Below are positions 11,671-19,793 of a stretch of 40,245 nt of DNA, in pieces. Positions within the stretch are counted from its first letter, which is position 1; the number at the start of each line of letters is the position of its first letter. A program made the translations under genes and the position numbers. The stretch lies in NCBI GenBank assembly GCA_025363535.1, contig JANYDP010000304.1, positions 1 to 40,245 on the forward strand, given 5' to 3'. The stretch is from Verrucomicrobiota bacterium (GTDB lineage: Bacteria; Verrucomicrobiota; Verrucomicrobiia; Limisphaerales; CAIQOK01). The notes beneath the pieces are model-generated. The model made no database searches and was not told where the DNA came from. It saw nothing but the letters and a program-made list of their open reading frames with translations.

Positions 11671-11787
11671 GGGAAACGTGAAACGTAAAACGTGAAAAAC
11701 CGGATGGGGCTGTCGCTGGTCACACTTCACGTTTCACACTTCACGTTTCACACTTCACGTTTCACGCTCATCCTGTTAGTTTCACGC
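11671..11787. repeat. Heptamer-tandem inverted repeat: GTGAAAC-type x4, spacer, (CACACTTCACGTTT)x3
   Basis: Left arm: GGGAAAC GTGAAAC GTAAAAC GTGAAAA (11671-11698). Right arm: three tandem 14-mers at 11721-11762, each containing the complement GTTTCAC, plus an extra GTTTCACG at 11779-11786. It lies in the divergent gap between ftsK (start 11647) and yihY (start 11794). Confidence 0.85.
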
Positions 11788-11793
11788 CCCGAC

Positions 11794-13596
11794 ATGGCAG
11801 AAAAAAAATCATGGCTTGAGAAGTTGCAGACGTTGCTGGATGAGCGCGGCCTGCGCTCGGAGGCGGATCTCACGAGCCTGAACAAGTTCATCCACTTTTG
11901 GATGTTGCTCGGCAAAAGCTTCGTCCGCAACCGCTGCCCCATCCGTGCCTCGGCGCTTTCCTACACCACGTTGCTGGCGCTGATTCCCATGCTGGCCGTG
12001 GCCATCAGCGTGACCAGCAGCCTGCTCAAGGAACAGGGGGAGGCGGGCATCTACCACTTGGTGGACCGGGTGGTCGCCTATCTGGTGCCGCCAACGAAGG
12101 GTAAAACCAATGGGCCTGCGCCCGCAGTCGTTTTGCAAATGACGACGAACTTCGCCGAATTGAGCGCGCCAACAAATTCGCTGGTCAGCACCAACGAGCC
12201 GCTGCCCGCCGTGACGACGAATGCCGTTCCCGCCAGCGCAGGCGATGACCGGGTCACCTCTGCGCAACGCGAGGTTTCCAAAAAAATCCACGAGTTCATC
12301 ACCAACACCCGCAGCGGCGTGCTGGGCATCACTGGCATGATCGCGCTGGTGGTGGTGGGCATCCGCATGTTGGGCAGCATCGAGTCCACCTTCAACGACA
12401 TCTGGGGGGTGACGCGCGGGCGCAACTGGCTGAGCCGAATTCAAATTTATTGCACCGCCGTCCTGATTGGCCCGCTGCTGCTGACCGGCGCGGCAGCGCT
12501 GGCGGGTGGCCCGCATCTCACGGCAACCCGCCAACTGATCACCAACATGCCGGTCGTGGGCAGTTTTATCTTTCCGATGCTTACCTTGTTGGTGCTGTGG
12601 CTGGCGTTCGCGATTTTTTACCAGCTTGTGCCCAACACCAAGGTGCAGTTCAGCGCGGCGCTCATTGGCGGCATGGTTGCGGGAACGCTCTGGCACTTGA
12701 ACAATGTCTTCGGCTACCTCTTCGCCTCGCGCGTGGCGACTAACAGCACGATTTACGGTGGGCTGTTCATCGTGCCGGTATTCATGGCGGGGCTTTATTT
12801 CACCTGGCTGATTCTATTGTTTGGCGCGCAGGTGGCGTATGCCTTTCAAAATCGCACCTTGTATTTGCAGGAAAAAATCGCCGAGAACGTGAACCAGCGA
12901 GGTCGCGAGTTTGTCGCATTGCGGTTGCTCACCTGCATTGGCCAGCGTTTTCAACGCGGTCTGCCGCCCGCGACGATTCATGAGATGTCCGCCGAGCTGG
13001 CGATTCCCAGCCGGCTGGTGCAGCAAGTTTTGCAGACGCTCATCGCCGCGCATCTCGTCGCGGAAACGCACGGACAGGAACCGGCCTACACGCCCGCGCG
13101 CCCACTCGAAAACATCAATGCCCATCACATTCTCCAGGCCATGCGCGCCACGAACGGTCAGGAGCTGGTCACCCGCGACGAGCCGATCCGCGAGGAGGTC
13201 TATGGCGAGTTTGCGCGTATCCAGGAAGCCGAGCGCCAGGCCGCCGCGTCCGTCACGATGCTCGCGCTGGTCAGCCGCGCGCAGGCCCGGCTGGAACTGG
13301 TCGCCCCGGTGGCGGCTGGGGACGAAATTAAAATGAAGCCCGCGTTGGTGCCGAGCATTGAACCCGCCGCCGCATCCGCCGAGGAAGAAATTAAATCGCC
13401 TGATCTTTCTGCCGGACCTCCTCCTGACCTGACCCCGAAAAAATTTGAACAGGGGAATGTTCGGCCGGAAAATGAAGACCGCATGGCGGTGGCTGAAATA
13501 AAATCCGCAGGATCGTCACAGGCTGAAACTAAAACTGCCGCCTCACCTTCCGCGATTGCAACTCCGACTGAAGAAGAAAGGGATTTTCCATTATGA
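11794..13596 (+). CDS. YihY/BrkB-family membrane protein with a long C-terminal extension (wHTH-like segment plus low-complexity tail)
   Basis: The ATG at 11794 gives MAEKKSWLEKL.... YihY signature IRASALSYTTLLALIPMLAV and six TM segments. Downstream is REFVALRLLTCIGQRF...ATIHEMSAELAIPSRLVQQVLQTLIAAHLV, which looks like a winged helix. The ORF-track start at 11692 reads through the repeat element and is rejected. Confidence 0.8.
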   Translation: MAEKKSWLEKLQTLLDERGLRSEADLTSLNKFIHFWMLLGKSFVRNRCPIRASALSYTTLLALIPMLAVAISVTSSLLKEQGEAGIYHLVDRVVAYLVPPTKGKTNGPAPAVVLQMTTNFAELSAPTNSLVSTNEPLPAVTTNAVPASAGDDRVTSAQREVSKKIHEFITNTRSGVLGITGMIALVVVGIRMLGSIESTFNDIWGVTRGRNWLSRIQIYCTAVLIGPLLLTGAAALAGGPHLTATRQLITNMPVVGSFIFPMLTLLVLWLAFAIFYQLVPNTKVQFSAALIGGMVAGTLWHLNNVFGYLFASRVATNSTIYGGLFIVPVFMAGLYFTWLILLFGAQVAYAFQNRTLYLQEKIAENVNQRGREFVALRLLTCIGQRFQRGLPPATIHEMSAELAIPSRLVQQVLQTLIAAHLVAETHGQEPAYTPARPLENINAHHILQAMRATNGQELVTRDEPIREEVYGEFARIQEAERQAAASVTMLALVSRAQARLELVAPVAAGDEIKMKPALVPSIEPAAASAEEEIKSPDLSAGPPPDLTPKKFEQGNVRPENEDRMAVAEIKSAGSSQAETKTAASPSAIATPTEEERDFPL

Positions 13597-13620: not shown

Positions 13621-15276
13621 TCAGACGATGCGGTCGGATGATTGCCCGGACAACTCCTTGATCTCCTCGGCGAGCTTGCTCGCCTGCCTTTCGAGTTCCG
13701 CGCTTTCCTTTTCAAGCAGTTTCTTTCGCTCCGCTGCCAGTTCATCCAACAGGCCCGGCTTCTTCTCGCTCAGTTGGCAAAGCTCGTAATCAGGGCTTTC
13801 TTTCAAGCGGTTCAGCGATTCGATGACCGCGATGATTTCCAGTTGCAACGTCTCATGCAGCCGACGCAACTGCGCCAGTTCCGCCGCGTCGCTGAAATCC
13901 AGCGTCGCCCAGCCCTGGCGCAGGATGAATCCGTGCGGGTCTTCCGCGATGTCCCGCAACGTCTGGATGTCGCCCGCGTCCTTTGCCCGGTTGATGGCGG
14001 CGGTCAGCTTGTGATATGTCTCCAGCTTGTCCGGTTGGTCGGCAAAACGGTCGGGGTGATACAACTTCACCAGCTTCTTCCACAGCCGCGACAGTTCCGC
14101 CTCCTCCTCGACGGTGAGTTGTTTCTTATCCGCCACCGCTGCGGCCGTCTCCTCGTAATCCTTGTCTGTTTGCGCTTTGGCCTGCTCGTAATTCGCTTCC
14201 GCCTGTTTTGCCTCCTCCTCGCCGCCGCGCACCAGCGAATCCAGAAACTTCCGCCGGTAATCCACGATAAGCCGCAGCCGGTCGCGCTGCTGATAATGCT
14301 CGCGCAACTGTCGGAACAACACCGACTGCATGACATCCACGCGCGATTTCTCTTTTGTGAAATTAACTTCCAACTCCGCCAGTCGCGCCCGCGCACCCGC
14401 CACCAACTGCCGCATTTGCTCCAACTCCGGGTTGACGTAAATCACCAGCCCGACGACGCCCGCTTGCGCGGCGGCAACGTCTTTGATTTCGCCGTCAATT
14501 CCCGGCATGGCAAACAGGGTTGCGTCAGATTGCGCACTGGAAATTTCCAGTTGCCGCAGATACCAGCGACCCATTTTCGCGCTGCGAGCATTGGAAGAAT
14601 TTGCCAGCCAGTCCAGCCAGCCGCGCAAGTCCGCGTCCTTGCGGGCCTCTTGAATCAACCTCCCCTTGTGTTTCCCGAATGCGATGCGCGACGGAAACCA
14701 TTCTTCCGCCGCGAACGCGACCAGCTTTTCCCACGTATCCAGACCGCGATGTTCGGCGATGGGGCGAAGCACCTGCGCCATCAAGTCCGCGACCGTTTGC
14801 ACGTCGCCAAGCGCCGTGTGTGCACCGCGTTCGGGCAGGCGATAATACTGCTGCAACGTTTGCAGCTTGCAGTTGCCGGCGGGCACGGGATCGAGCAGCC
14901 GCTGCGCCAGACGCAGGGCGCAAAACCCGCGACTGGCAATCGAGCCGATGCCCAGCCGCTTCCACTCCGGCTGCAACACTTGATCCAGATCGTATTCCAG
15001 ATTGAACGCAACGAGCGGCAGGCCGCCTGCGTATTCGGCAAACTCCCGATAGACCTGCTGCGCCAGCTCGCCGTCGCGCTCCAAAATCTCGCGGGTGTAA
15101 CCATGAACTCGCGTTGCCTCGGCGGGAATATCCGCGTTTTGATTGAGCAACTTGCGAAACGGTTTGCCGTCCGGCTGCCAGCCGCGCATCCGTTGTGCGG
15201 CCAGTTCAACGACAAAGACGGGGACGGCGAAGCCAGTCGTTTCGGTATCCAAGAGAACCCATTGTTCACTGTTCAT
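13621..15276 (-). CDS. DEDDh 3'-5' exonuclease (DnaQ-like) fused to a coiled-coil region and a J-domain (HPD)
   Basis: Exo motifs LLDTETTG (about 15241-15258), AFNLEYDL and HTALGDV. A small FGKHKGRLIQEA...GWLDWL module follows the nuclease. Coiled coil, then the J-domain LWKKLVKLYHPDRFADQPDKLETYHKLTAAINRAKD, with HPD codons at 14050-14058. Start chosen at ATG 15276 (AGGAA 5 nt upstream); ATGs at 15294 and 15297 are alternatives. Confidence 0.85.
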   Translation of the reverse strand: MNSEQWVLLDTETTGFAVPVFVVELAAQRMRGWQPDGKPFRKLLNQNADIPAEATRVHGYTREILERDGELAQQVYREFAEYAGGLPLVAFNLEYDLDQVLQPEWKRLGIGSIASRGFCALRLAQRLLDPVPAGNCKLQTLQQYYRLPERGAHTALGDVQTVADLMAQVLRPIAEHRGLDTWEKLVAFAAEEWFPSRIAFGKHKGRLIQEARKDADLRGWLDWLANSSNARSAKMGRWYLRQLEISSAQSDATLFAMPGIDGEIKDVAAAQAGVVGLVIYVNPELEQMRQLVAGARARLAELEVNFTKEKSRVDVMQSVLFRQLREHYQQRDRLRLIVDYRRKFLDSLVRGGEEEAKQAEANYEQAKAQTDKDYEETAAAVADKKQLTVEEEAELSRLWKKLVKLYHPDRFADQPDKLETYHKLTAAINRAKDAGDIQTLRDIAEDPHGFILRQGWATLDFSDAAELAQLRRLHETLQLEIIAVIESLNRLKESPDYELCQLSEKKPGLLDELAAERKKLLEKESAELERQASKLAEEIKELSGQSSDRIV

Positions 15277-15802
15277 GTTTCCTGTCTTCAACATCATTCA
15301 GCAACCGCTCGATTTCGTCTTTCGACAAGCCCCCTCTTATGTCCTTGAAGCGAACAGCATGTTGCCTACAAGTCTGGCTATCTTGGGCGGAAACGTGGAG
15401 AACCCCGTTAGCGTCAATATCAAAAATCACTCGTATCTGGCGTTCTGACTCTGCCGTCAGTGAAATATCATCGATAATGAACTTGCCGAACAACGGATTC
15501 ATGGCGGCCAGAATGTTTTCACCTTGAACCACAGTGAATTCGATGCTCGTTCCATTACCGATGAAATTAGGAAGGATCAGCGATGTTCGTGCAGGGATTA
15601 TTGTGTTGCGCTTAAACACTGTAATGGCTCGGCCGTCACTGCCCTCGATGCTTAAAGTCAGCGGTGTAGCATCGCATTTTTGCCGAACCATCTCGATTGT
15701 TTCCCTCACCATGTCGGACAGAATACGCTTTGCGCCCGGCTGAGATTTTTCAATCGCGCTTGGCGGTCTCGGCACTAACGCAAAATTGTTCTTCTCATTC
15801 AT
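15266..15802 (-). CDS. Stand-alone Hsp70 (DnaK-type) substrate-binding domain protein with no nucleotide-binding domain
   Basis: 178 aa. PLTLSIEGSDGRAITVFKRNTIIPARTS...FTVVQGENILAAMNPLFGKFIIDDISLTAESERQIRVIFDIDANGVLHVSAQD...GLSKDEIERLLNDVE aligns by eye with E. coli DnaK ~393-520 ([71 protein letters not shown]...GLNEDEIQKMV). Only ~45 non-NBD residues precede it. Confidence 0.85.
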   Translation of the reverse strand: MNEKNNFALVPRPPSAIEKSQPGAKRILSDMVRETIEMVRQKCDATPLTLSIEGSDGRAITVFKRNTIIPARTSLILPNFIGNGTSIEFTVVQGENILAAMNPLFGKFIIDDISLTAESERQIRVIFDIDANGVLHVSAQDSQTCRQHAVRFKDIRGGLSKDEIERLLNDVEDRKHEQ

Positions 15803-16616
15803 GGTTATCTCTAGAAATTATCGCGAGGCTTGGATTTGTTGGAATGTAGGCTGAGAGGCTTGGAGATATCCTTCTGATGCACTCAAGTGCGGCATTGATT
15901 CGAACACCAATCAGTGTTTGTTTATTTGAGATGAATTCGATGGCGACACCCACCAGCCTTGGTGTCCACATCTGATGCCCACCCAAATCGGTCTGAGCAA
16001 AGCTCCAGACAGGGCCACCGCTCATCCCTTGCGGATTGGGTGCTGCTACGATTCTTCCATTCTCGTCGGTAACCTGCTTCAAGTCGAATTTGACCGCGAT
16101 ATGGGTTTGCGGCGTAATCCCCAAAAAGGTGTAATCGGTTTTGGAAATTGATACGGACCTGAAATTGTAAAGTCGCGGCTCCAAAATTCCACCTAGCTTT
16201 TCTGAGTGAACTTTTCTCCAAGGGTATCCAAAAAACTCATACGGTCTTCCTGACAGATCGGAATTGTTTGCGTCTGCATACTGAATTGGAAGTGGTGCGT
16301 GAACTTCTTCCATGAAAGACACTGTGTCATCGGTGAGTGCGATAACCGAAGTGTCATTTCGATCATCTCGCCTCGATCCTTGCACCAGCCGCGTTGCCTT
16401 TCCATGCCCTCGAAGTTTCCGGAACCCTTTTTGATTACCCACGAGCAAAGTTCCATTTGCCGCAAAATCGGTGATGTGCGCCGCAGTGATTAAGAACCTA
16501 GTTTGTTCCACTATGACCAACGTGCCGGTTCCAATCAGTTCCGGCTTTCCGCGTTGCAGATCCCAAAGAGGACAGATGCATTGAGCAATTGGTGGTATTC
16601 TATTTTCACACTCCAA
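15795..16616 (-). CDS. Cytoplasmic trypsin-like (chymotrypsin-fold) serine protease
   Basis: 273 aa. His in FLITAAHI (His codon 16476-16478), Asp in DTSVIAL, Ser in GMSGGPVW (Ser codon 16020-16022). No signal peptide or TM segment. TTG start at 16616, overlapping the Doc gene by 11 nt. Confidence 0.75.
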   Translation of the reverse strand: MECENRIPPIAQCICPLWDLQRGKPELIGTGTLVIVEQTRFLITAAHITDFAANGTLLVGNQKGFRKLRGHGKATRLVQGSRRDDRNDTSVIALTDDTVSFMEEVHAPLPIQYADANNSDLSGRPYEFFGYPWRKVHSEKLGGILEPRLYNFRSVSISKTDYTFLGITPQTHIAVKFDLKQVTDENGRIVAAPNPQGMSGGPVWSFAQTDLGGHQMWTPRLVGVAIEFISNKQTLIGVRINAALECIRRISPSLSAYIPTNPSLAIISRDNHE

Positions 16617-17244
16617 ATTGCTTCCGCAACTTCTCTGGAATCATGGAAAGCAGAGTCTGCTCAACTTGCGGAATATGGTCGTCGAACCGGTGCTGATTGA
16701 TGTTCAACTCTTCGCACCTGGTCACAAGAACCGCTTTAATTTTGCTGGCCACGAAATCCAGAATGATGGCCTTTGTCTCGTCAGGTAGTGGCGCGGTTCC
16801 TCCGACCAGAAGCGATTTGATTTCGTCGGCGATTGTTTGGGGTTCGACATGGAAGAAATTCTCTGTGCCGCTCAAGTAGAGCATCTCTGCAAAGACTGGT
16901 TTTGATATCCGCCCTTCGGTGAGAGCGATCATGCAGTTGAACAGCTCCTCCTCCTCAAATTGCACTTCGATCTGATTTTGTTTCAGAAAGGCCAACGCCG
17001 CCATCAGAGCGGTGCGCTTGTTGCCGTCGGTGAACGGATGATTTTTTGCAATGTGAAAGGCGTACGCCGCCGCCACATCGAAAACGTCGGCGGCGGGCAG
17101 GTAAAGCCAAGTGTTTTGCGGCTGGGCCAGTGCAGATTCCAAAAGTCCGTGGTCCAGCACGGCAGGGTCACCGCCGTATAGTTGGATTTGTTGATCGTGG
17201 TAGGCGAGAACGGCTTCCTCGCGGAGAAAAAGCAGGTCGCTCAC
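16606..17244 (-). CDS. doc: Doc (death-on-curing) Fic-family toxin with an ~85-aa C-terminal extension
   Basis: 212 aa, GTG start. REEAVLAYHDQQIQLYGG..., and the Doc active-site motif HPFTDGNKRT at 17011-17040. Canonical Doc is ~125 aa. Residues ~128-212 (TENFFHVEPQTIADEIKSLL...LSMIPEKLRKQFGV) are extra and unrecognised. Confidence 0.88.
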   Translation of the reverse strand: MSDLLFLREEAVLAYHDQQIQLYGGDPAVLDHGLLESALAQPQNTWLYLPAADVFDVAAAYAFHIAKNHPFTDGNKRTALMAALAFLKQNQIEVQFEEEELFNCMIALTEGRISKPVFAEMLYLSGTENFFHVEPQTIADEIKSLLVGGTAPLPDETKAIILDFVASKIKAVLVTRCEELNINQHRFDDHIPQVEQTLLSMIPEKLRKQFGV

Positions 17245-17249
17245 TGCGG

Positions 17250-17420
17250 TTACTGGGCCAAGCGACGGAACACGCCACTATACTTTTTCTCTGCCCAATC
17301 GCCAGCCGCTTTGGACTGTTCGAGACCAGCGTAGCGAATACTCCGCGACTTGCCCGGAGACTTGGGGGAAGCTTTCGAGGCGATTTTATCAGGCGTTTCC
17401 TTTGTCGCGGTAGCTTTCAT
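17250..17420 (-). CDS. 56-aa small protein in the antitoxin position upstream of doc (not Phd-like by eye)
   Basis: My own codon-by-codon translation: MKATATKETPDKIASKASPKSPGKSRSIRYAGLEQSKAAGDWAEKKYSGVFRRLAQ*. It ends 5 nt before the doc GTG. It is below the 60-aa cutoff of the ORF track. The N-terminus is Lys/Ser/Pro-rich and the C-terminal part looks helical. Confidence 0.55.
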   Translation of the reverse strand: MKATATKETPDKIASKASPKSPGKSRSIRYAGLEQSKAAGDWAEKKYSGVFRRLAQ

Positions 17421-17429
17421 TTCAGTGGC

Positions 17430-17458
17430 AGTTTACCTCAACATAAAGAAGGTGTAAA
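17430..17458 (-). promoter_or_regulatory. Candidate sigma70-type promoter TTTACA-17 nt-TAAACT for the five-gene operon
   Basis: On the minus strand the -35 TTTACA is at 17458-17453 and the -10 TAAACT at 17435-17430, with a 17-nt spacer. The predicted start site is only a few nt before the ATG at 17420, giving a near-leaderless mRNA. Confidence 0.35.
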
Positions 17459-17545
17459 GCTGGTTAAAGGCCGGTGCTCCTGCTGGTTTCAAAGGCCGCA
17501 GGCCGAATGAAGCGCCCCTTTCAAAAATTTTAGGAGCTTACGTGA

Positions 17546-17782
17546 GGAGGCGTGACGCATTACTACGTGGCGAACATGCCCGGTGCGTATGCGCGCACGG
17601 CGACCCAGGTATTGACGAACGTGACGCAGCGTTACATCGAACTGCTGGCCGACAACGGACTGGCCGAAGCCTGCCGCCTGCAACCCGCGCAGGTCAGCGG
17701 CCTCAACGTGATGGGCGGCAAAGTTACGCACAAGGCCGTCGCCGAGGCGCACGGGATGAAGTGGGAAGCGCCGAAGCTCTGA
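17546..17782 (+). pseudogene. ald: 3' remnant (last ~76 codons) of alanine dehydrogenase
   Basis: THYYVANMPGAYARTATQVLTNVTQRYIELLADNGLAEACRLQPAQVSGLNVMGGKVTHKAVAEAHGMKWEAPKL matches the AlaDH C-terminus (xVANMPGAVPRTSTxALTNxTLPY...GLN...G.VT..AVA...G). An in-frame TGA at 17543-17545 lies immediately upstream. The ~300 N-terminal codons are absent. Confidence 0.8.
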
Positions 17783-17824
17783 AAACTTTTACTAGGAACA
17801 CGGGACAGGAATGTCTCGTGAACC

Positions 17825-17890
17825 CGCAGGCAAAAATGCCTGCGCTACGTCAAAACAAAAAAGCGGCGGAAATTTCTTTCCGCCGCTTTT
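17825..17890. terminator. Two hairpins between the ald remnant and the ilvB 3' end; the second is a bidirectional intrinsic terminator
   Basis: CGCAGGCA-aaaa-TGCCTGCG (17825-17844). AAAAGCGGCGGAAA-tttc-TTTCCGCCGCTTTT (17859-17890) has a 14-bp stem flanked by an A-tract and a T-tract, 17 nt from the ilvB stop at 17907. Confidence 0.8.
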
Positions 17891-17906
17891 GCTTTCCAGA
17901 ATTTGC

Positions 17907-19793
17907 TTACGCCTTCCAGATCATGTCCGCCACGGTTTTGCCGGCTGGAATGAAGGGCAGGACGTGCGTGGAGTAAGGCACCACCACGTCGAGCACGTAG
18001 GGTTCGTCAGCGTCGAGCATCCGCTGGATGGCGGCGCGGAGATCTTTCTTGTACATCACGCGCTCGCATTTCACGTTGAACGAATTGCACACGCGCACGT
18101 AGTCGGGATAAATTTCCGCGCGGTGATCGGGGTCGCCGAGATAGGTGTGGCCGCGATTGCCGGCGAAGAAATTATCCTCCCATTGCACCACCATGCCGAG
18201 ATGCTGGTTGTTCAGGATGATCGCCTTCGCGGCTATTTTTTCGATGTGCGCGGTGGCCAGCTCCTGGATGTTCATCAGGAACGAGCCGTCGCCATCAATG
18301 TCAATGACCTGCTTGTCGGGCAGCGCGACCTTCACGCCGAGCGCGGCGGGATAGCCGTAGCCCATCGAGCCGAGGCCGAGGCTGCTGATGTATTGGCGCG
18401 GGTGTTTGTATTTATACCATTGCGCGGCCCACATCTGATGCTGGCCGACGCCGGTGGTGATGTACGCCTCGCCCTTGGTCATTTCGTAAAGCGTCTCGAT
18501 CACCATCTGCTGGAGGATGACTTCGTTCTCCTGGCCCTGGAGATGGTCCACCATGTGGTCGCTGTTGGCGATTTCCGGCGTGATGCGGTAGGCGAACGGC
18601 GCTTTTTCTTTCCACTCGGCGATCTGCGCGAGCCAGGCGGTATGCTTCTTTTGCATCGGCCGTTTCGCGACGAGCTTGTTCAAACGCGTCAACGCGTCCT
18701 TGATGTCGCCGACGATGGGCAGGTGGGCCTTGCGGTTTTTGTTCAGCTCGGACGCGTCAATATCCACATGGACAATCGTGCCGTGCTTGCAAAATTCCTC
18801 GAATTTGCCGGTCACGCGGTCATCGAAGCGCACGCCGAACGCGAGCAGCAAATCCGCGCCGTCCTTCAACTTCGCCATCGGGCCGTTTGGATCTTTGCGG
18901 TAGGCGTATTCGCCGTTGACCGCCCAGTTCGCGGAGGCCGCGCCGTGCATGCCGAGCCAACGCAAGGAGAGCGGATGGGTTTCCGGAAAACCCCCGACGC
19001 CCATGAGGGTGGTCGTCACTGGAATGTTCGTCGCCTCGGCGAATTTTTTCAATTCCGCCGCCGCGCCGCTCGTGATGATGCCGCCGCCGCAGTAAAGCAC
19101 GGGCCGTTCGGCCTTCTCGATCAGCCCCATGATTTCGTTGAGGGCGAGTTCATCCGCCTTGAGATCGGGTTGGGTATAACCGCGCAGACCCTTTTTGATT
19201 TGGTCGAGCGTCGGCCAGACGGGTTGCGTCTTTTGCTGCTGAATATTCTTGGGGAAATCAATCACGACCGGCCCGGGCCGGCCGCTTTGCGCAATGTAGA
19301 AGGCTTCCTTCACGATGCGCGGGATGTCGTTGATGTTCGTGATGAGATAGCTGTGCTTCACGATGGGCAGCGTGACGCCGATGATGTCGGTTTCCTGAAA
19401 CGCGCCGCGACCAATCATCGCCTGGCTCACCTGGCCGGTGATGGCAATGAGCGGGCAGGAATCCATGAAGGCGTCGGCAATGGCGGTGACGAGGTTGGTC
19501 GCGCCGGGGCCGCTGGTGCCCATGCACACGCCGGCTTTGCCGGTGGCGCGGGCGTAACCCTCGGCGGCAAACGAACCGCCCTGCTCATGGCGCGGAAGGA
19601 TGGTGCGGATTTTGGAGTGGGTGAGCGACTGGTGGATTTCCAGGCTCGCGCCGCCGGGGTAGGCGAAAATAACTTCCACGGCCTCGCGTTCAAGCGCGGC
19701 GACGAAGATGTCGCGGCCCAGCATGGCGGCACCGACTTCGGCGCGTTTGGCGGACGGTTTCTTTTTGGCGGCGACTGCGGTTGTTTTGCTCAT
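17907..19793 (-). CDS. ilvB: Acetolactate synthase (AHAS) large catalytic subunit, biosynthetic type
   Basis: The ATG at 19793 gives [57 protein letters not shown].... ThDP motif [18 protein letters not shown]...[12 protein letters not shown]. The ORF-track start at 19892 reads through the upstream hairpin. Confidence 0.93.

What the first reader, a model, noticed from the sequence alone, without database searches (positions are those of the whole stretch)
15266..15802. Hsp70 substrate-binding domain encoded alone, without the ATPase domain
The 178-aa product aligns by eye along the whole DnaK beta-sandwich SBD, including the near-invariant (V/I)xFDIDANG(I/V)LHVSAxD strand and the start of the helical lid (GLSKDEIERLL). 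Only ~45 unrelated residues precede it, and the upstream gene is a protease, so no NBD is present. Canonical Hsp70 function needs NBD-SBD allostery, so a free SBD would act as an ATP-independent holdase, decoy or sensor. It is followed immediately by a J-domain protein whose normal target (the NBD/linker) is missing in cis. This suggests interplay with the host DnaK, for example sensing chaperone titration during infection or stress.
Basis: partly seen in the sequence, partly recalled or inferred. Interest (0 to 1): 0.72.

Follow-up and report, generated by a model that had tools for sequence, protein, structure and literature searches.

The report
Hsp70 binding domain as swappable cassette
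The ATPase-less Hsp70 substrate-binding domain is real, but it is one rare, interchangeable "head" among many carried on a conserved 43-residue N-terminal peptide, in a previously undescribed hypervariable gene family that sits directly upstream of a conserved exonuclease/J-domain gene in Verrucomicrobiota.

Summary
Observation confirmed. ORF 15266-15802(-) encodes 178 aa. Residues 44-177 match Pfam HSP70 columns 388-520 (E 1e-24), equal to E. coli DnaK 392-521. The AF2 model has all eight beta-strands plus lid helix A and superposes on solved SBDs. There is no NBD, no hydrophobic linker and no NBD remnant anywhere in the window. The gene is under purifying selection.

The main new result concerns the "45 unrelated residues". 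They form a conserved module, here called N-mod, found at the N-terminus of at least 485 protein clusters. Among the 150 best-scoring clusters the C-terminal heads are mostly receiver domains (59) and Sel1 repeats (35); TPR, LRR and PTS-EIIA are less common, and Hsp70 SBD occurs in only 3.

N-mod genes lie directly upstream of, and overlap, a highly conserved DEDDh-exonuclease + J-like-domain gene (ExoJ, invariant HPD). This held in 37 loci, including all 14 loci that were retrieved through ExoJ alone and had upstream DNA. Heads are exchanged by recombination inside N-mod: two contigs are 99.2% identical up to about codon 31, then carry SBD versus receiver.

So the J-protein is linked to N-mod, not to the SBD. 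Best reading (inferred): N-mod docks variable binding or sensor heads onto the J-domain hub, which acts on the cell's own DnaK. The biological role is unknown.

The parts
15266..15802 (-). Gene for the 178-aa N-mod + Hsp70-SBD protein (stop codon included)
   Evidence: ORF listed. Pfam HSP70 E 9.6e-25. Close full-length homologs P0002-P0005 at 50-60% identity, plus P0095. dN/dS 0.14-0.32.
15674..15802 (-). N-mod: conserved N-terminal module, residues 1-43 (MNEKNNFALVPRPPSAIEKSQPGAKRILSDMVRETIEMVRQKC)
   Evidence: Shared with REC, LRR, Sel1, EIIA and other proteins. The profile finds 485 clusters at E<=1e-3, nearly always at residues 1-43. No match in Pfam, PDB sequences, NCBIfam or PADLOC. pS 0.60 against pN 0.22 over 45 distinct copies. 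AF2 gives low confidence, with a helix at 22-39.
15269..15673 (-). Hsp70 substrate-binding beta-sandwich (residues 44-~160) plus lid helix A (161-177); no NBD, no VLLLD linker, no lid helices B-E
   Evidence: By alignment to DnaK, the pocket positions I401/F426/V436/I438 correspond to I52/L77/I87/F89. The arch positions M404/A429 correspond to S55/F80 and vary within the family (DnaK residue roles are from my own knowledge of Zhu et al. 1996).
13621..15297 (-). ExoJ: conserved DEDDh exonuclease + helical/J-like-domain protein (558 aa as listed; homologs start at Met8 = nt 15276, which overlaps the SBD gene's 3' end by 11 nt)
   Evidence: PF00929 E 1.7e-13, DnaJ E 0.0018. PADLOC DEDDh and PDC-S48 match the N-terminal part. 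At least 1403 homologs, the top 120 at 75-90% identity, Verrucomicrobiota. Alignment A6. N-mod genes are its only recurrent neighbour.
14782..15258 (-). DEDDh 3'-5' exonuclease domain of ExoJ (residues 14-172)
   Evidence: Pfam RNase_T covers model positions 1-163 of 164. PDB sequence matches to Cas2-DEDDh and DnaQ. Absent from the short 'J-only' forms in L020, L038, L039 and L041.
13915..14112 (-). J-like domain of ExoJ (residues ~396-461; LWKKLVKLYHPDRF... with invariant HPD 414-416)
   Evidence: Pfam DnaJ scores 21.1 bits, below the 27.8 cutoff, aligned to model columns 14-51. A profile against PDB sequences finds more than 15 J-domains at E 0.02-0.3 in the correct helix II-HPD-helix III register. 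HPD is invariant in 47 sequences. AF2 predicts helices 396-412, 422-441 and 444-461 at low to moderate confidence.
15795..16616 (-). Trypsin-like serine peptidase (273 aa) between Doc and the SBD gene; an accessory, non-N-mod cassette
   Evidence: PF13365 E 1e-4, below the cutoff. A homolog (363 bits; PF13365 27.8 bits) lies upstream of N-mod genes in L032:67-870. Absent from the other loci.
16606..17244 (-). Doc-type Fic-fold protein (212 aa; HPFTDGNKR motif and a ~100-aa C-terminal extension)
   Evidence: PF02661 E 6.7e-19; TIGR01550 DOC_P1 E 8.4e-19. Found only in the window, L001 and L006, so it is not part of the conserved core.
17250..17420 (-). 56-aa ORF immediately upstream of Doc; candidate antitoxin
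   Evidence: Conserved upstream of Doc in L001 (1135-1314) and L006. No family match. A promoter-like site at 17458-17430 and an ilvB terminator-like hairpin at 17890-17859 suggest the operon starts here.

Best explanation
The ORF is a functional gene for a two-part protein. The first part is a 43-residue N-terminal module (N-mod). The second is a lid-less, linker-less, NBD-less Hsp70 substrate-binding beta-sandwich. It is one rare member of a large hypervariable family of 'N-mod + head' proteins in Verrucomicrobiota.

Shown:
- Genes of this family sit, singly or in tandem arrays of 1-3, directly upstream of a highly conserved gene (ExoJ) and usually overlap it. ExoJ encodes a DEDDh exonuclease fused to a helical region containing a J-like domain with invariant HPD.
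- The heads are mostly receiver domains and Sel1/TPR/LRR repeats.
- Heads are exchanged between near-identical genomes by recombination within the N-mod coding sequence.

Inferred:
- N-mod is the constant docking peptide that couples whichever head is present to the J-containing half of ExoJ. Short ExoJ forms lacking the exonuclease keep the N-mod partners, which points to that half.
- The J-domain recruits and activates the cell's own full-length DnaK, not this SBD, which has neither an NBD nor the linker that J-domains act on.
- In this allele the SBD head serves as an ATP-independent receptor for an extended hydrophobic peptide. It plays the same specificity or sensor role that Sel1, LRR or REC heads play in other alleles.

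Whether the output is regulation of the exonuclease, DnaK-driven remodelling of a bound target, or an immune or abortive response is not determined.
For: Real gene and full SBD:
-.
- Purifying selection, dN/dS 0.14-0.32.
- Five further SBD-type clusters (P0002-P0005, P0095) at 50-60% identity.

N-mod is a separate module:
- P0079 and P0080 share only residues 1-40 and continue as REC.
- L001 has N-mod-SBD followed by N-mod-LRR.
- 45 distinct copies across the fetched loci.
- 485 clusters at E<=1e-3 and 370 at E<=1e-10, with N-mod at residues 1-43 and protein lengths 50-624 aa.
- Head census of the top 150 clusters: REC 59, Sel1 35, TPR ~10, LRR 8, Toprim_Crpt 5, HSP70 3, EIIA 2.
- Selection acts on the peptide, not the DNA: pS 0.60, pN 0.22.

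Coupling to ExoJ:
- N-mod genes lie directly upstream on the same strand in 37 loci and are the only recurrent neighbour.
- All 14 loci found through ExoJ alone that had upstream DNA carry them.
- Stop/start overlaps occur, for example 4 nt in L002-L005 and 11 nt in the window.
- J-only short forms still have N-mod partners.
- In the 51-53% diverged ExoJ loci L055 and L056, the upstream FGE-like and LRR proteins carry correspondingly diverged N-mod-like N-termini.

Cassette exchange:
- L001 and L006 are 99.2% identical over 917 bp, up to about codon 31 of N-mod, then unrelated (SBD versus REC).
- ExoJ proteins 87-89% identical to the window's are paired with EIIA (L019), REC (L050/L051, L037) or SBD heads.

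The J-domain does not target this SBD:
- There is no NBD in the window.
- The DnaK linker VLLLD is replaced by VRQKC.
Against: - No direct evidence that N-mod binds ExoJ. The inference rests on gene order and overlap.
- AF2 gives N-mod low confidence (pLDDT 43-54).
- N-mod divergence does not track ExoJ divergence within the canonical group: Mantel r 0.09, p 0.24. The best region, ExoJ 290-395, gives r 0.21, p 0.06.
- A few N-mod genes have no ExoJ within 10 kb (L017, L023).
- The J-domain assignment is below Pfam's gathering score, and the ExoJ model is poor.
- The SBD arch and loop residues are not conserved among the few SBD-type members, so peptide binding is plausible but unproven.
- Only 6 SBD-type clusters are known.
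Confidence: 0.6

Rival explanations
1. Client model, analogous to HscB-IscU-HscA. N-mod is itself an Hsp70-binding client tag: a hydrophobic FALV core followed by basic and proline residues, then a basic-flanked amphipathic helix. The J-protein presents N-mod to DnaK's SBD, so N-mod proteins are dedicated DnaK clients whose activity is switched by chaperone remodelling. In the SBD allele, the built-in SBD would bind its own or a neighbour's N-mod and act as a self-inhibited or decoy form that competes with DnaK.
For: - The N-mod consensus NFALV[PR][RK]P[PS].A.EKA.PGAKRILSGMVADTLAL has the general look of DnaK-binding segments. It resembles the YLPRP core of proline-rich peptides crystallised in the DnaK SBD (own knowledge; such complexes, 3dpo, 3qnj and 4ezn, appear among the fold matches only because of the SBD).
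- An invariant-HPD J-like domain is encoded next door.
- L001 carries an SBD head and an LRR head in tandem, so a trans interaction is possible.
Against:
- The proline after ALV is not conserved (ALVRK, ALVQK and ALVTK variants).
- AF2 did not confidently dock N-mod into the cleft.
- The model does not by itself explain why heads are so diverse and so rapidly exchanged.
- It is compatible with, rather than exclusive of, the docking model.
Confidence: 0.2
2. The free SBD and the J-protein form a dedicated SBD-specific pair: an ATP-independent holdase or decoy that monitors or titrates host DnaK during infection or stress.
For: SBD-to-ExoJ adjacency is seen in the window and in L002-L005. The hydrophobic pocket residues are retained.
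Against: - The same J-protein (87-89% identical) is paired with REC or EIIA heads elsewhere.
- SBD heads are only 3 of 150 N-mod clusters.
- In L001 an LRR gene lies between the SBD gene and ExoJ.
- The window is chromosomal, with no phage genes nearby.
Confidence: 0.1
3. The SBD protein belongs to the adjacent Doc toxin module. It would be an antitoxin-like or chaperone-like third component (as in toxin-antitoxin-chaperone systems), or a substrate of the Fic-fold enzyme, by analogy with FICD AMPylating the BiP SBD.
For: Doc lies upstream in the window, L001 and L006. Fic-Hsp70 SBD chemistry exists in eukaryotes (own knowledge; FICD-BiP structures appear).
Against: - Doc has its own conserved small upstream ORF.
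- SBD genes in L002-L005 have no Doc; a 255-aa unknown protein lies upstream instead.
- About 40 other N-mod loci lack Doc.
- In L006 the same Doc (99% identical) is followed by a REC head.
- The motif HPFTDGNKR is the kinase-type Doc variant, not the AMPylating Fic motif (motif rules from own knowledge).
- The residue aligned to the BiP AMPylation site region is not Thr (own alignment, from memory of the site).
Confidence: 0.04
4. Decayed fragment of a dnaK gene or an assembly artefact.
For: Many short 'Hsp70' database hits are truncated or frameshifted DnaK fragments on short contigs.
Against: - The ORF is intact with an ATG start and a dedicated N-terminal module.
- Orthologs of the same length occur in independent samples.
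- dN/dS is 0.14-0.32.
- There is no NBD remnant.
- It is tightly packed in an operon.
Confidence: 0.02

Closest known systems
DnaK/Hsp70 substrate-binding domain (e.g. E. coli DnaK 393-507 + helix A; PDB 1DKY/1DKZ; mortalin SBD 3N8E)
   Same: Homologous domain: 35-45% identity over ~135 residues, eight-stranded sandwich, FDIDANG strand and the start of lid helix A. The hydrophobic pocket positions are conserved in character.
   Different: It has no NBD, no VLLLD interdomain linker and no lid helices B-E. The arch residues (M404/A429 equivalents) are replaced and variable. It is preceded by an unrelated conserved 43-aa module. It therefore cannot run the ATP-driven chaperone cycle.
NBD-only Hsp70 proteins in GAP1-N2 GTPase conflict systems (Kaur, Burroughs, Iyer, Aravind 2020, PMC7159879)
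   Same: That system also has an Hsp70 split into a single-domain protein, encoded near DnaJ-domain or TPR-containing proteins in variable multi-gene systems.
   Different: That protein keeps the opposite half of Hsp70 (the ATPase without the peptide-binding domain). The partners (GTPase, GrpE, FNIII) and the phyla (Actinobacteria, Firmicutes) differ. No N-mod or exonuclease is involved.
Specialised class-C J-domain proteins with a dedicated partner, e.g. HscB-IscU-HscA (own knowledge; bacterial Hsp70 review PMC8215388)
   Same: A J-domain is joined to a helical domain and encoded next to a dedicated partner protein that would be handed to an Hsp70.
   Different: The J-like domain here is divergent (below the Pfam cutoff), lacks helix I, and is fused to a DEDDh exonuclease and long helices. 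The partner set is hypervariable rather than a single client. Binding is untested. A large JDP survey (PMC10410713) does not mention exonuclease fusions in its main text.
F-box proteins / SCF ligases, and response-regulator adaptors such as RssB or CpdR (functional analogy only; own knowledge)
   Same: The logic is the same: a short constant N-terminal motif plugs interchangeable recognition heads (LRR, repeats, REC) into one constant machine.
   Different: There is no sequence or structural relationship. The machine here is a J-domain/exonuclease protein, not a ubiquitin ligase or AAA+ protease.
Cassette-exchange loci such as polymorphic toxin C-terminal cassettes (functional analogy)
   Same: A conserved 5' segment provides homology for swapping divergent 3' modules. 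Arrays include tandem and truncated stub copies.
   Different: The conserved part is a short N-terminal peptide on complete, independently translated genes. There are no immunity genes. The heads are binding or signalling domains, not toxins.
PADLOC candidate PDC-S48 and Cas2-DEDDh exonucleases
   Same: The N-terminal exonuclease part of ExoJ matches PDC-S48 (E 1.7e-16, model positions 1-233 of 411) and the CRISPR-associated DEDDh model (E 1e-22).
   Different: Only the exonuclease domain matches. The SBD protein, N-mod and the protease have no PADLOC match. No known defence system has this architecture.

Membership tests
Hsp70 chaperone (DnaK/HscA/HscC) | N-terminal actin-fold nucleotide-binding (ATPase) domain | tested here: not met
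   Pfam and NCBIfam matches start at profile column ~385. No NBD-like sequence exists anywhere in the window.
Hsp70 chaperone (DnaK/HscA/HscC) | Conserved hydrophobic interdomain linker (DnaK 389-VLLLD-393) needed for allostery and J-domain action | tested here: not met
   The aligned positions read VRQKCD in the window and DRRESD, AHQEFD or VRRELD in homologs. The role of the linker is from established knowledge.
Hsp70 chaperone (DnaK/HscA/HscC) | Eight-stranded SBD-beta sandwich with a central hydrophobic pocket | tested here: met
   AF2 predicts eight strands. Foldseek TMt is 0.69-0.74 to solved SBDs. Pocket positions are I52/L77/I87/F89 by alignment.
Hsp70 chaperone (DnaK/HscA/HscC) | Alpha-helical lid (helices A-E) closing over the cleft | tested here: not met
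   The protein ends at residue 178, within helix A (DnaK ~521).
Hsp70 chaperone (DnaK/HscA/HscC) | Peptide binding in the cleft | not testable with these tools
   This needs peptide-binding assays. The arch residues are diverged.
J-domain protein (the neighbour ExoJ) | HPD tripeptide between helices II and III | tested here: met
   KLYHPDRF is invariant in 47 homologs and in the short forms.
J-domain protein (the neighbour ExoJ) | Significant match to the J-domain family model / four-helix J fold | tested here: inconclusive
   Pfam DnaJ scores 21.1 bits against a cutoff of 27.8. The profile against PDB finds many J-domains at E 0.02-0.3 in the right register. AF2 helices fit, but pLDDT is 53-71 and helix I is absent.
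J-domain protein (the neighbour ExoJ) | Stimulates Hsp70 ATPase | not testable with these tools
   This is a biochemical assay.
N-mod protein family (defined here) | About 43-aa N-terminal module matching the N-mod profile | tested here: met
   98 bits, E 1.7e-23 against 1.84e9 proteins; it is the top hit.
N-mod protein family (defined here) | Encoded directly upstream of, and on the same strand as, an ExoJ gene | tested here: met
   In the window the gene at 15266-15802 overlaps the ExoJ start. The same arrangement is seen in 37 loci.
Phd-Doc type II toxin-antitoxin module (as a home for the SBD protein) | Two-gene unit of a small antitoxin plus Doc; any third component should co-occur with it | tested here: not met
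   Doc and the 56-aa ORF occur in 3 loci only. SBD genes occur without Doc in L002-L005, and the same Doc is paired with a REC head in L006.
Known anti-phage defence systems (PADLOC-DB v2) | Match of the component proteins to a described system | tested here: not met
   There are no hits for the SBD protein or the protease. In ExoJ only the exonuclease domain matches (DEDDh, PDC-S48). Doc matches only generic Fic candidates.

The most novel reading that the evidence does not exclude
N-mod/ExoJ is a previously undescribed, recombination-diversified receptor system of Verrucomicrobiota that is occasionally carried by their prophages. A 43-residue docking peptive plays the role an F-box plays in eukaryotes. 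It plugs interchangeable sensor heads into a hub that combines a J-domain, which commandeers the cell's DnaK, with a DEDDh exonuclease. The heads are receiver, Sel1/TPR, LRR and EIIA domains, and, uniquely, an ATPase-less Hsp70 substrate-binding domain. The array would act as an immune or conflict sensor, or as a signal-integration device. The SBD head would be the first natural example of an Hsp70 peptide-binding domain reused as a stand-alone, chaperone-cycle-independent recognition module.
Probability: 0.3. Interest if true: 0.85.

Novelty: new variant of a known kind. Interest (0 to 1): 0.68.

Why it matters
Hsp70 function is understood as NBD-SBD allostery. A naturally selected SBD that has lost the NBD, linker and lid, and has been recruited as one option among LRR, Sel1 and REC heads, shows the beta-sandwich can be used as a generic peptide-recognition module.

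The finding also exposes an unannotated family. It comprises at least 485 clusters at 50% identity and has no Pfam, NCBIfam, PADLOC or PDB match. It is coupled to an abundant, highly conserved J-domain/exonuclease protein in a poorly studied phylum, and cassettes turn over at strain level.

That gives a concrete, testable case of how a J-domain protein might be supplied with exchangeable specificity adaptors. It is also a candidate new conflict or signalling system. The parts are small and soluble, so binding, ATPase-stimulation and phage-challenge experiments are straightforward.

Tried and rejected
1. NBD remnant. tblastn of 73 DnaK fragments against the window found nothing outside 15269-15676.
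2. Doc/Fic link, as a TAC-like chaperone or a FICD-BiP-like substrate. Rejected on co-occurrence: Doc is in only 3 loci, SBD genes occur without Doc, and the same Doc is paired with a REC head.
3. Homotypic adaptor idea, with an N-mod copy inside ExoJ, like effector-associated domains. hhalign probability was 0.08%, and the N-mod HMM found only one copy in the window.
4. N-mod/ExoJ co-evolution. Mantel tests were not significant: r 0.09 for the C-terminal half, and r 0.21, p 0.06 for residues 290-395. Within-locus N-mods are more alike than between loci (72.7% against 62.0%, p~2e-4), but local duplication or gene conversion could explain that.
5. N-mod as a DNA-level recombination or regulatory element only. 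Rejected, because synonymous sites are near saturation (pS 0.60) while the peptide is conserved. Even so, recombination does use N-mod as homology between close relatives.
6. ExoJ structure. The AF2 model was poor (pLDDT 59, exonuclease domain not folded because the alignment is shallow at 75-90% identity) and the Foldseek result was meaningless.
7. N-mod against PDB sequences, Pfam, NCBIfam and PADLOC: no match.
8. Flank synteny. IlvB, YihY and FtsK are not near ExoJ in any other locus, and no downstream gene is conserved.
9. Canonical N-mod in IMG/VR: none found.
10. Literature. Searches found no SBD-only bacterial Hsp70, no J-domain/DEDDh fusion and nothing on this family.

Caveats:
- The word-indexed protein search returned mostly proteins of query-like length, so its counts are lower bounds.
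- Only the top 150 of the 485 N-mod clusters were censused for domains.

Full report
**1. The observation**

The minus-strand ORF at 15266-15802 encodes a 178-aa protein containing VIFDIDANGVLHVSAQD and GLSKDEIERLL.
- Pfam HSP70 matches residues 44-177 to profile columns 388-520 of 599 (E 9.6e-25, 87 bits).
- The NCBIfam DnaK equivalog models match the same columns (E ~1e-29). HscA models score lower.
- Against PDB sequences, residues 43-173 align with E. coli DnaK 392-521.
- An AlphaFold2 model built on a 91-sequence alignment gives eight strands between residues 50 and 153 and a helix at 161-177. Per-block pLDDT is 76-91 through the sandwich.
- Foldseek superposes the model on isolated SBD structures over about 135 columns, rmsd 3.3-3.5 A, target-normalised TM 0.69-0.74.

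The similarity therefore covers the entire SBD-beta and the start of the lid.

There is no NBD. The upstream ORF is a trypsin-like peptidase. tblastn with 73 DnaK fragments carrying C-terminal NBD sequence hits only 15269-15676 in the whole 40-kb window. The DnaK linker VLLLD is replaced by VRQKC.

The gene is under purifying selection: dN/dS is 0.14-0.32 against two orthologs. Full-length orthologs of 177-219 aa exist in independent metagenomes (P0002-P0005, P0095).

**2.

Two hits in the first search, P0079 and P0080, share about 73% identity with only the first ~40 residues and then continue as receiver domains. On contig L001 the SBD gene is followed by an LRR gene that starts with the same ~43 residues. 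I call this segment N-mod; its consensus is MNEKNNFALVPRPPSA.EKAEPGAKRILSGMVADTLAL.

A profile of N-mod was searched without a word index against 1.84 billion representative proteins. It finds 485 clusters at E<=1e-3 (370 at E<=1e-10). The match is almost always at residues 1-43, in proteins of 50-624 aa.

A Pfam census of the best 150 clusters gives these heads:

| Head domain | Clusters |
|---|---|
| Response_reg (REC) | 59 |
| Sel1 | 35 |
| TPR types | ~10 |
| LRR | 8 |
| Toprim_Crpt | 5 |
| HSP70 | 3 |
| PTS_EIIA_2 | 2 |
| MIT | 2 |
| FGE-sulfatase | 1 |

N-mod has no match in Pfam, NCBIfam, PADLOC or PDB sequences. Across 45 distinct copies, synonymous differences are near saturation (pS 0.60) while pN is 0.22. 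Selection is therefore on the peptide. AF2 predicts a flexible proline-rich start and a helix at 22-39, at low confidence.

**3. Genomic context**

In the window the minus-strand operon reads as follows:
- a 56-aa ORF (17250-17420);
- Doc-type Fic protein (16606-17244);
- trypsin-like peptidase (15795-16616);
- N-mod-SBD (15266-15802);
- a 558-aa protein (13621-15297) that I call ExoJ.

Adjacent genes overlap by 8-11 nt. The ilvB gene upstream ends in a strong terminator-like hairpin, and a promoter-like site precedes the 56-aa ORF.

ExoJ has three parts:
- a DEDDh exonuclease domain (PF00929 E 1.7e-13; PADLOC DEDDh and PDC-S48 match the N-terminal part only; PDB sequence matches to Cas2-DEDDh and DnaQ);
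- a variable linker;
- a helical C-terminal half containing LWKKLVKLYHPDRF.

The DnaJ match is below Pfam's cutoff (21.1 against 27.8 bits). However, a profile of this region hits more than 15 solved J-domains at E 0.02-0.3 in the correct helix II-HPD-helix III register, and HPD is invariant in 47 homologs.

ExoJ is abundant and very conserved. At least 1403 homologs have E<=1e-10, and the best 120 are 75-90% identical. Where named, they come from Verrucomicrobiota/Limisphaerales MAGs.

**4. The coupling**

In the loci fetched through N-mod, through exact proteins and, independently, through ExoJ alone, N-mod genes sit directly upstream of ExoJ on the same strand, in arrays of one to three.
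- This holds in 37 loci, and N-mod is the only gene family that recurs near ExoJ.
- All 14 ExoJ-anchored metagenome loci with upstream DNA have N-mod genes.
- Nothing downstream is conserved, and no other locus shares the window's flanks.
- Short ExoJ forms that lack the exonuclease (about 275 aa, equal to residues 285-558; L020, L038, L039, L041) still follow N-mod genes. This ties N-mod to the J-containing half.
- Exceptions are rare: L017 and L023 have no ExoJ within 10 kb, and L009 is an N-mod stub cut by an IS element.
- Two IMG/VR contigs carry 51-53% diverged ExoJ genes. One lies between phage head genes (L055). The other lies beside a repressor and a serine integrase (L056). Their upstream FGE-sulfatase-like and LRR genes have correspondingly diverged N-mod-like N-termini.

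**5. Turnover**

L001 and L006 are 99.2% identical over 917 bp. This stretch covers the 56-aa ORF, Doc, the spacer and N-mod codons 1 to about 31. After that they become unrelated: an SBD head in L001 and a REC head in L006. The recombination breakpoint therefore lies inside N-mod.

ExoJ proteins 87-89% identical to the window's are paired with EIIA (L019), REC (L050/L051, L037) or SBD heads. N-mod-only stubs of 44-79 aa occur next to ExoJ. Doc and its small ORF occur in only three loci, and the peptidase in two. These are accessory genes.

**6. Interpretation**

Shown:
- The SBD ORF is a real, selected, ATPase-less Hsp70 SBD.
- It belongs to the N-mod family.
- The family is genetically coupled to ExoJ.
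- Heads are swapped by recombination in N-mod.

Inferred:
- N-mod docks the head onto the J/helical half of ExoJ.
- The J-domain works on the cell's own DnaK. This SBD lacks the NBD and linker that J-domains act on.
- The SBD head serves as an ATP-independent peptide receptor, equivalent in role to the Sel1, LRR or REC heads. Its pocket residues are kept as I52/L77/I87/F89. The arch positions are S55/F80 and vary within the family.

I could not obtain direct support for N-mod-ExoJ binding:
- N-mod is not present in ExoJ.
- Mantel tests for co-variation were not significant.
- The ExoJ model was too poor to use.

A close alternative is that N-mod is itself a DnaK-binding client tag presented by the J-protein, as in HscB-IscU. 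The SBD allele would then be a self-binding or decoy form. I give the docking/adaptor reading about 0.6 and the client variant about 0.2. The biological output (regulation, remodelling or immunity) is open. Rapid cassette turnover, tandem arrays and stubs, nearby toxin-antitoxin genes and the prophage-borne versions suggest a conflict role, but nothing tests it.

**7. Comparison with known systems**

The protein is a homolog of the Hsp70 SBD but fails the defining features of an Hsp70 chaperone: NBD, linker and lid. The nearest described oddity is the opposite half. NBD-only Hsp70s occur in GAP1-N2 GTPase systems next to DnaJ and TPR proteins (PMC7159879).

Functionally, the architecture resembles specialised J-proteins with dedicated partners. 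In its logic it resembles F-box adaptors, response-regulator adaptors and cassette-exchange loci. These are analogies, not memberships. Searches of the literature, a bacterial Hsp70 review and a large J-domain-protein survey found no description of an SBD-only bacterial Hsp70, a J/DEDDh fusion or this family.

**8. Verdict**

The SBD-only gene is a new variant of a known domain family. The more notable result is the undescribed N-mod/ExoJ cassette system it belongs to. Interest 0.68.

Noticed in passing
window 16606-17420 (-): A 56-aa ORF plus a Doc-type Fic protein (HPFTDGNKR motif, 212 aa, with a ~100-aa C-terminal extension beyond the Doc core) form a probable toxin-antitoxin pair. The pair is conserved in L001 and L006. 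The 56-aa protein matches no family.
   Followed up: partly
window 15795-16616 (-); L032:67-870: A trypsin-like peptidase (TAAHITD and GMSGGP motifs) lies between Doc and the SBD gene. A homolog (363 bits) sits upstream of two N-mod genes (LRR, then Sel1+Toprim_Crpt) in L032. It may be a recurrent accessory of these arrays.
   Followed up: partly
L020:10613-11359, L038:3883-4704, L039:4040-4828, L041:860-1660: Short 'J-only' versions of ExoJ (~275 aa, equal to residues 285-558) lack the exonuclease domain. Those with upstream DNA are still preceded by N-mod genes, whose N-mod tends to be of the ...SAVEKAAPG... subtype.
   Followed up: partly
L055:4906-7623 and L056:3631-6575 (IMG/VR contigs): Diverged ExoJ genes (51-53% identity) occur on prophage-like contigs. 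In L055 the gene is inserted between the major head protein and downstream head genes, like a moron, and is preceded by an FGE-sulfatase-like protein. In L056 it lies next to a repressor and a serine integrase, and is preceded by an LRR protein. Both upstream proteins have diverged N-mod-like N-termini.
   Followed up: partly
L001 vs L006 (L001:1200-2116 = L006:1-917): The DNA is 99.2% identical up to about codon 31 of N-mod and then unrelated (SBD versus REC). This is a strain-level recombination breakpoint inside the conserved module.
   Followed up: yes
L009:8016-10056: An N-mod gene is reduced to a 64-69-aa stub directly followed by an IS element (DUF4096 + DDE_Tnp_1). No ExoJ lies nearby.
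   Followed up: no
L037:1453-3609: One open frame holds two N-mod modules (N-mod-Sel1, then N-mod-REC). It is either a natural fusion of two cassettes or a lost stop codon.
   Followed up: no
L007:6158-7015, L009:7190-7843: DUF2971-family proteins without N-mod lie just upstream of N-mod genes in two unrelated loci.
   Followed up: no
window 11692-13596 (+): A YihY/BrkB membrane protein (PF03631) is fused to a C-terminal Rrf2-like HTH region, which is an unusual combination. It is convergent with ExoJ.
   Followed up: no
window 14001-18000: GC content dips to 0.53-0.55 across the Doc-peptidase-SBD-ExoJ block, against about 0.60 in the flanks. This is consistent with a horizontally exchanged island.
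   Followed up: no
window 17859-17890 (-): A 14-bp-stem terminator-like hairpin lies right after the ilvB stop. A sigma-70-like site at 17458-17430 lies just upstream of the 56-aa ORF. The counts of such sites are no higher than in shuffled sequence.
   Followed up: no
L016, L018 (record titles): MAGs labelled Bifidobacteriaceae and Acidobacteria carry typical Verrucomicrobiota-type N-mod/ExoJ genes on short contigs. These are probably binning contamination rather than a wider host range.
   Followed up: no
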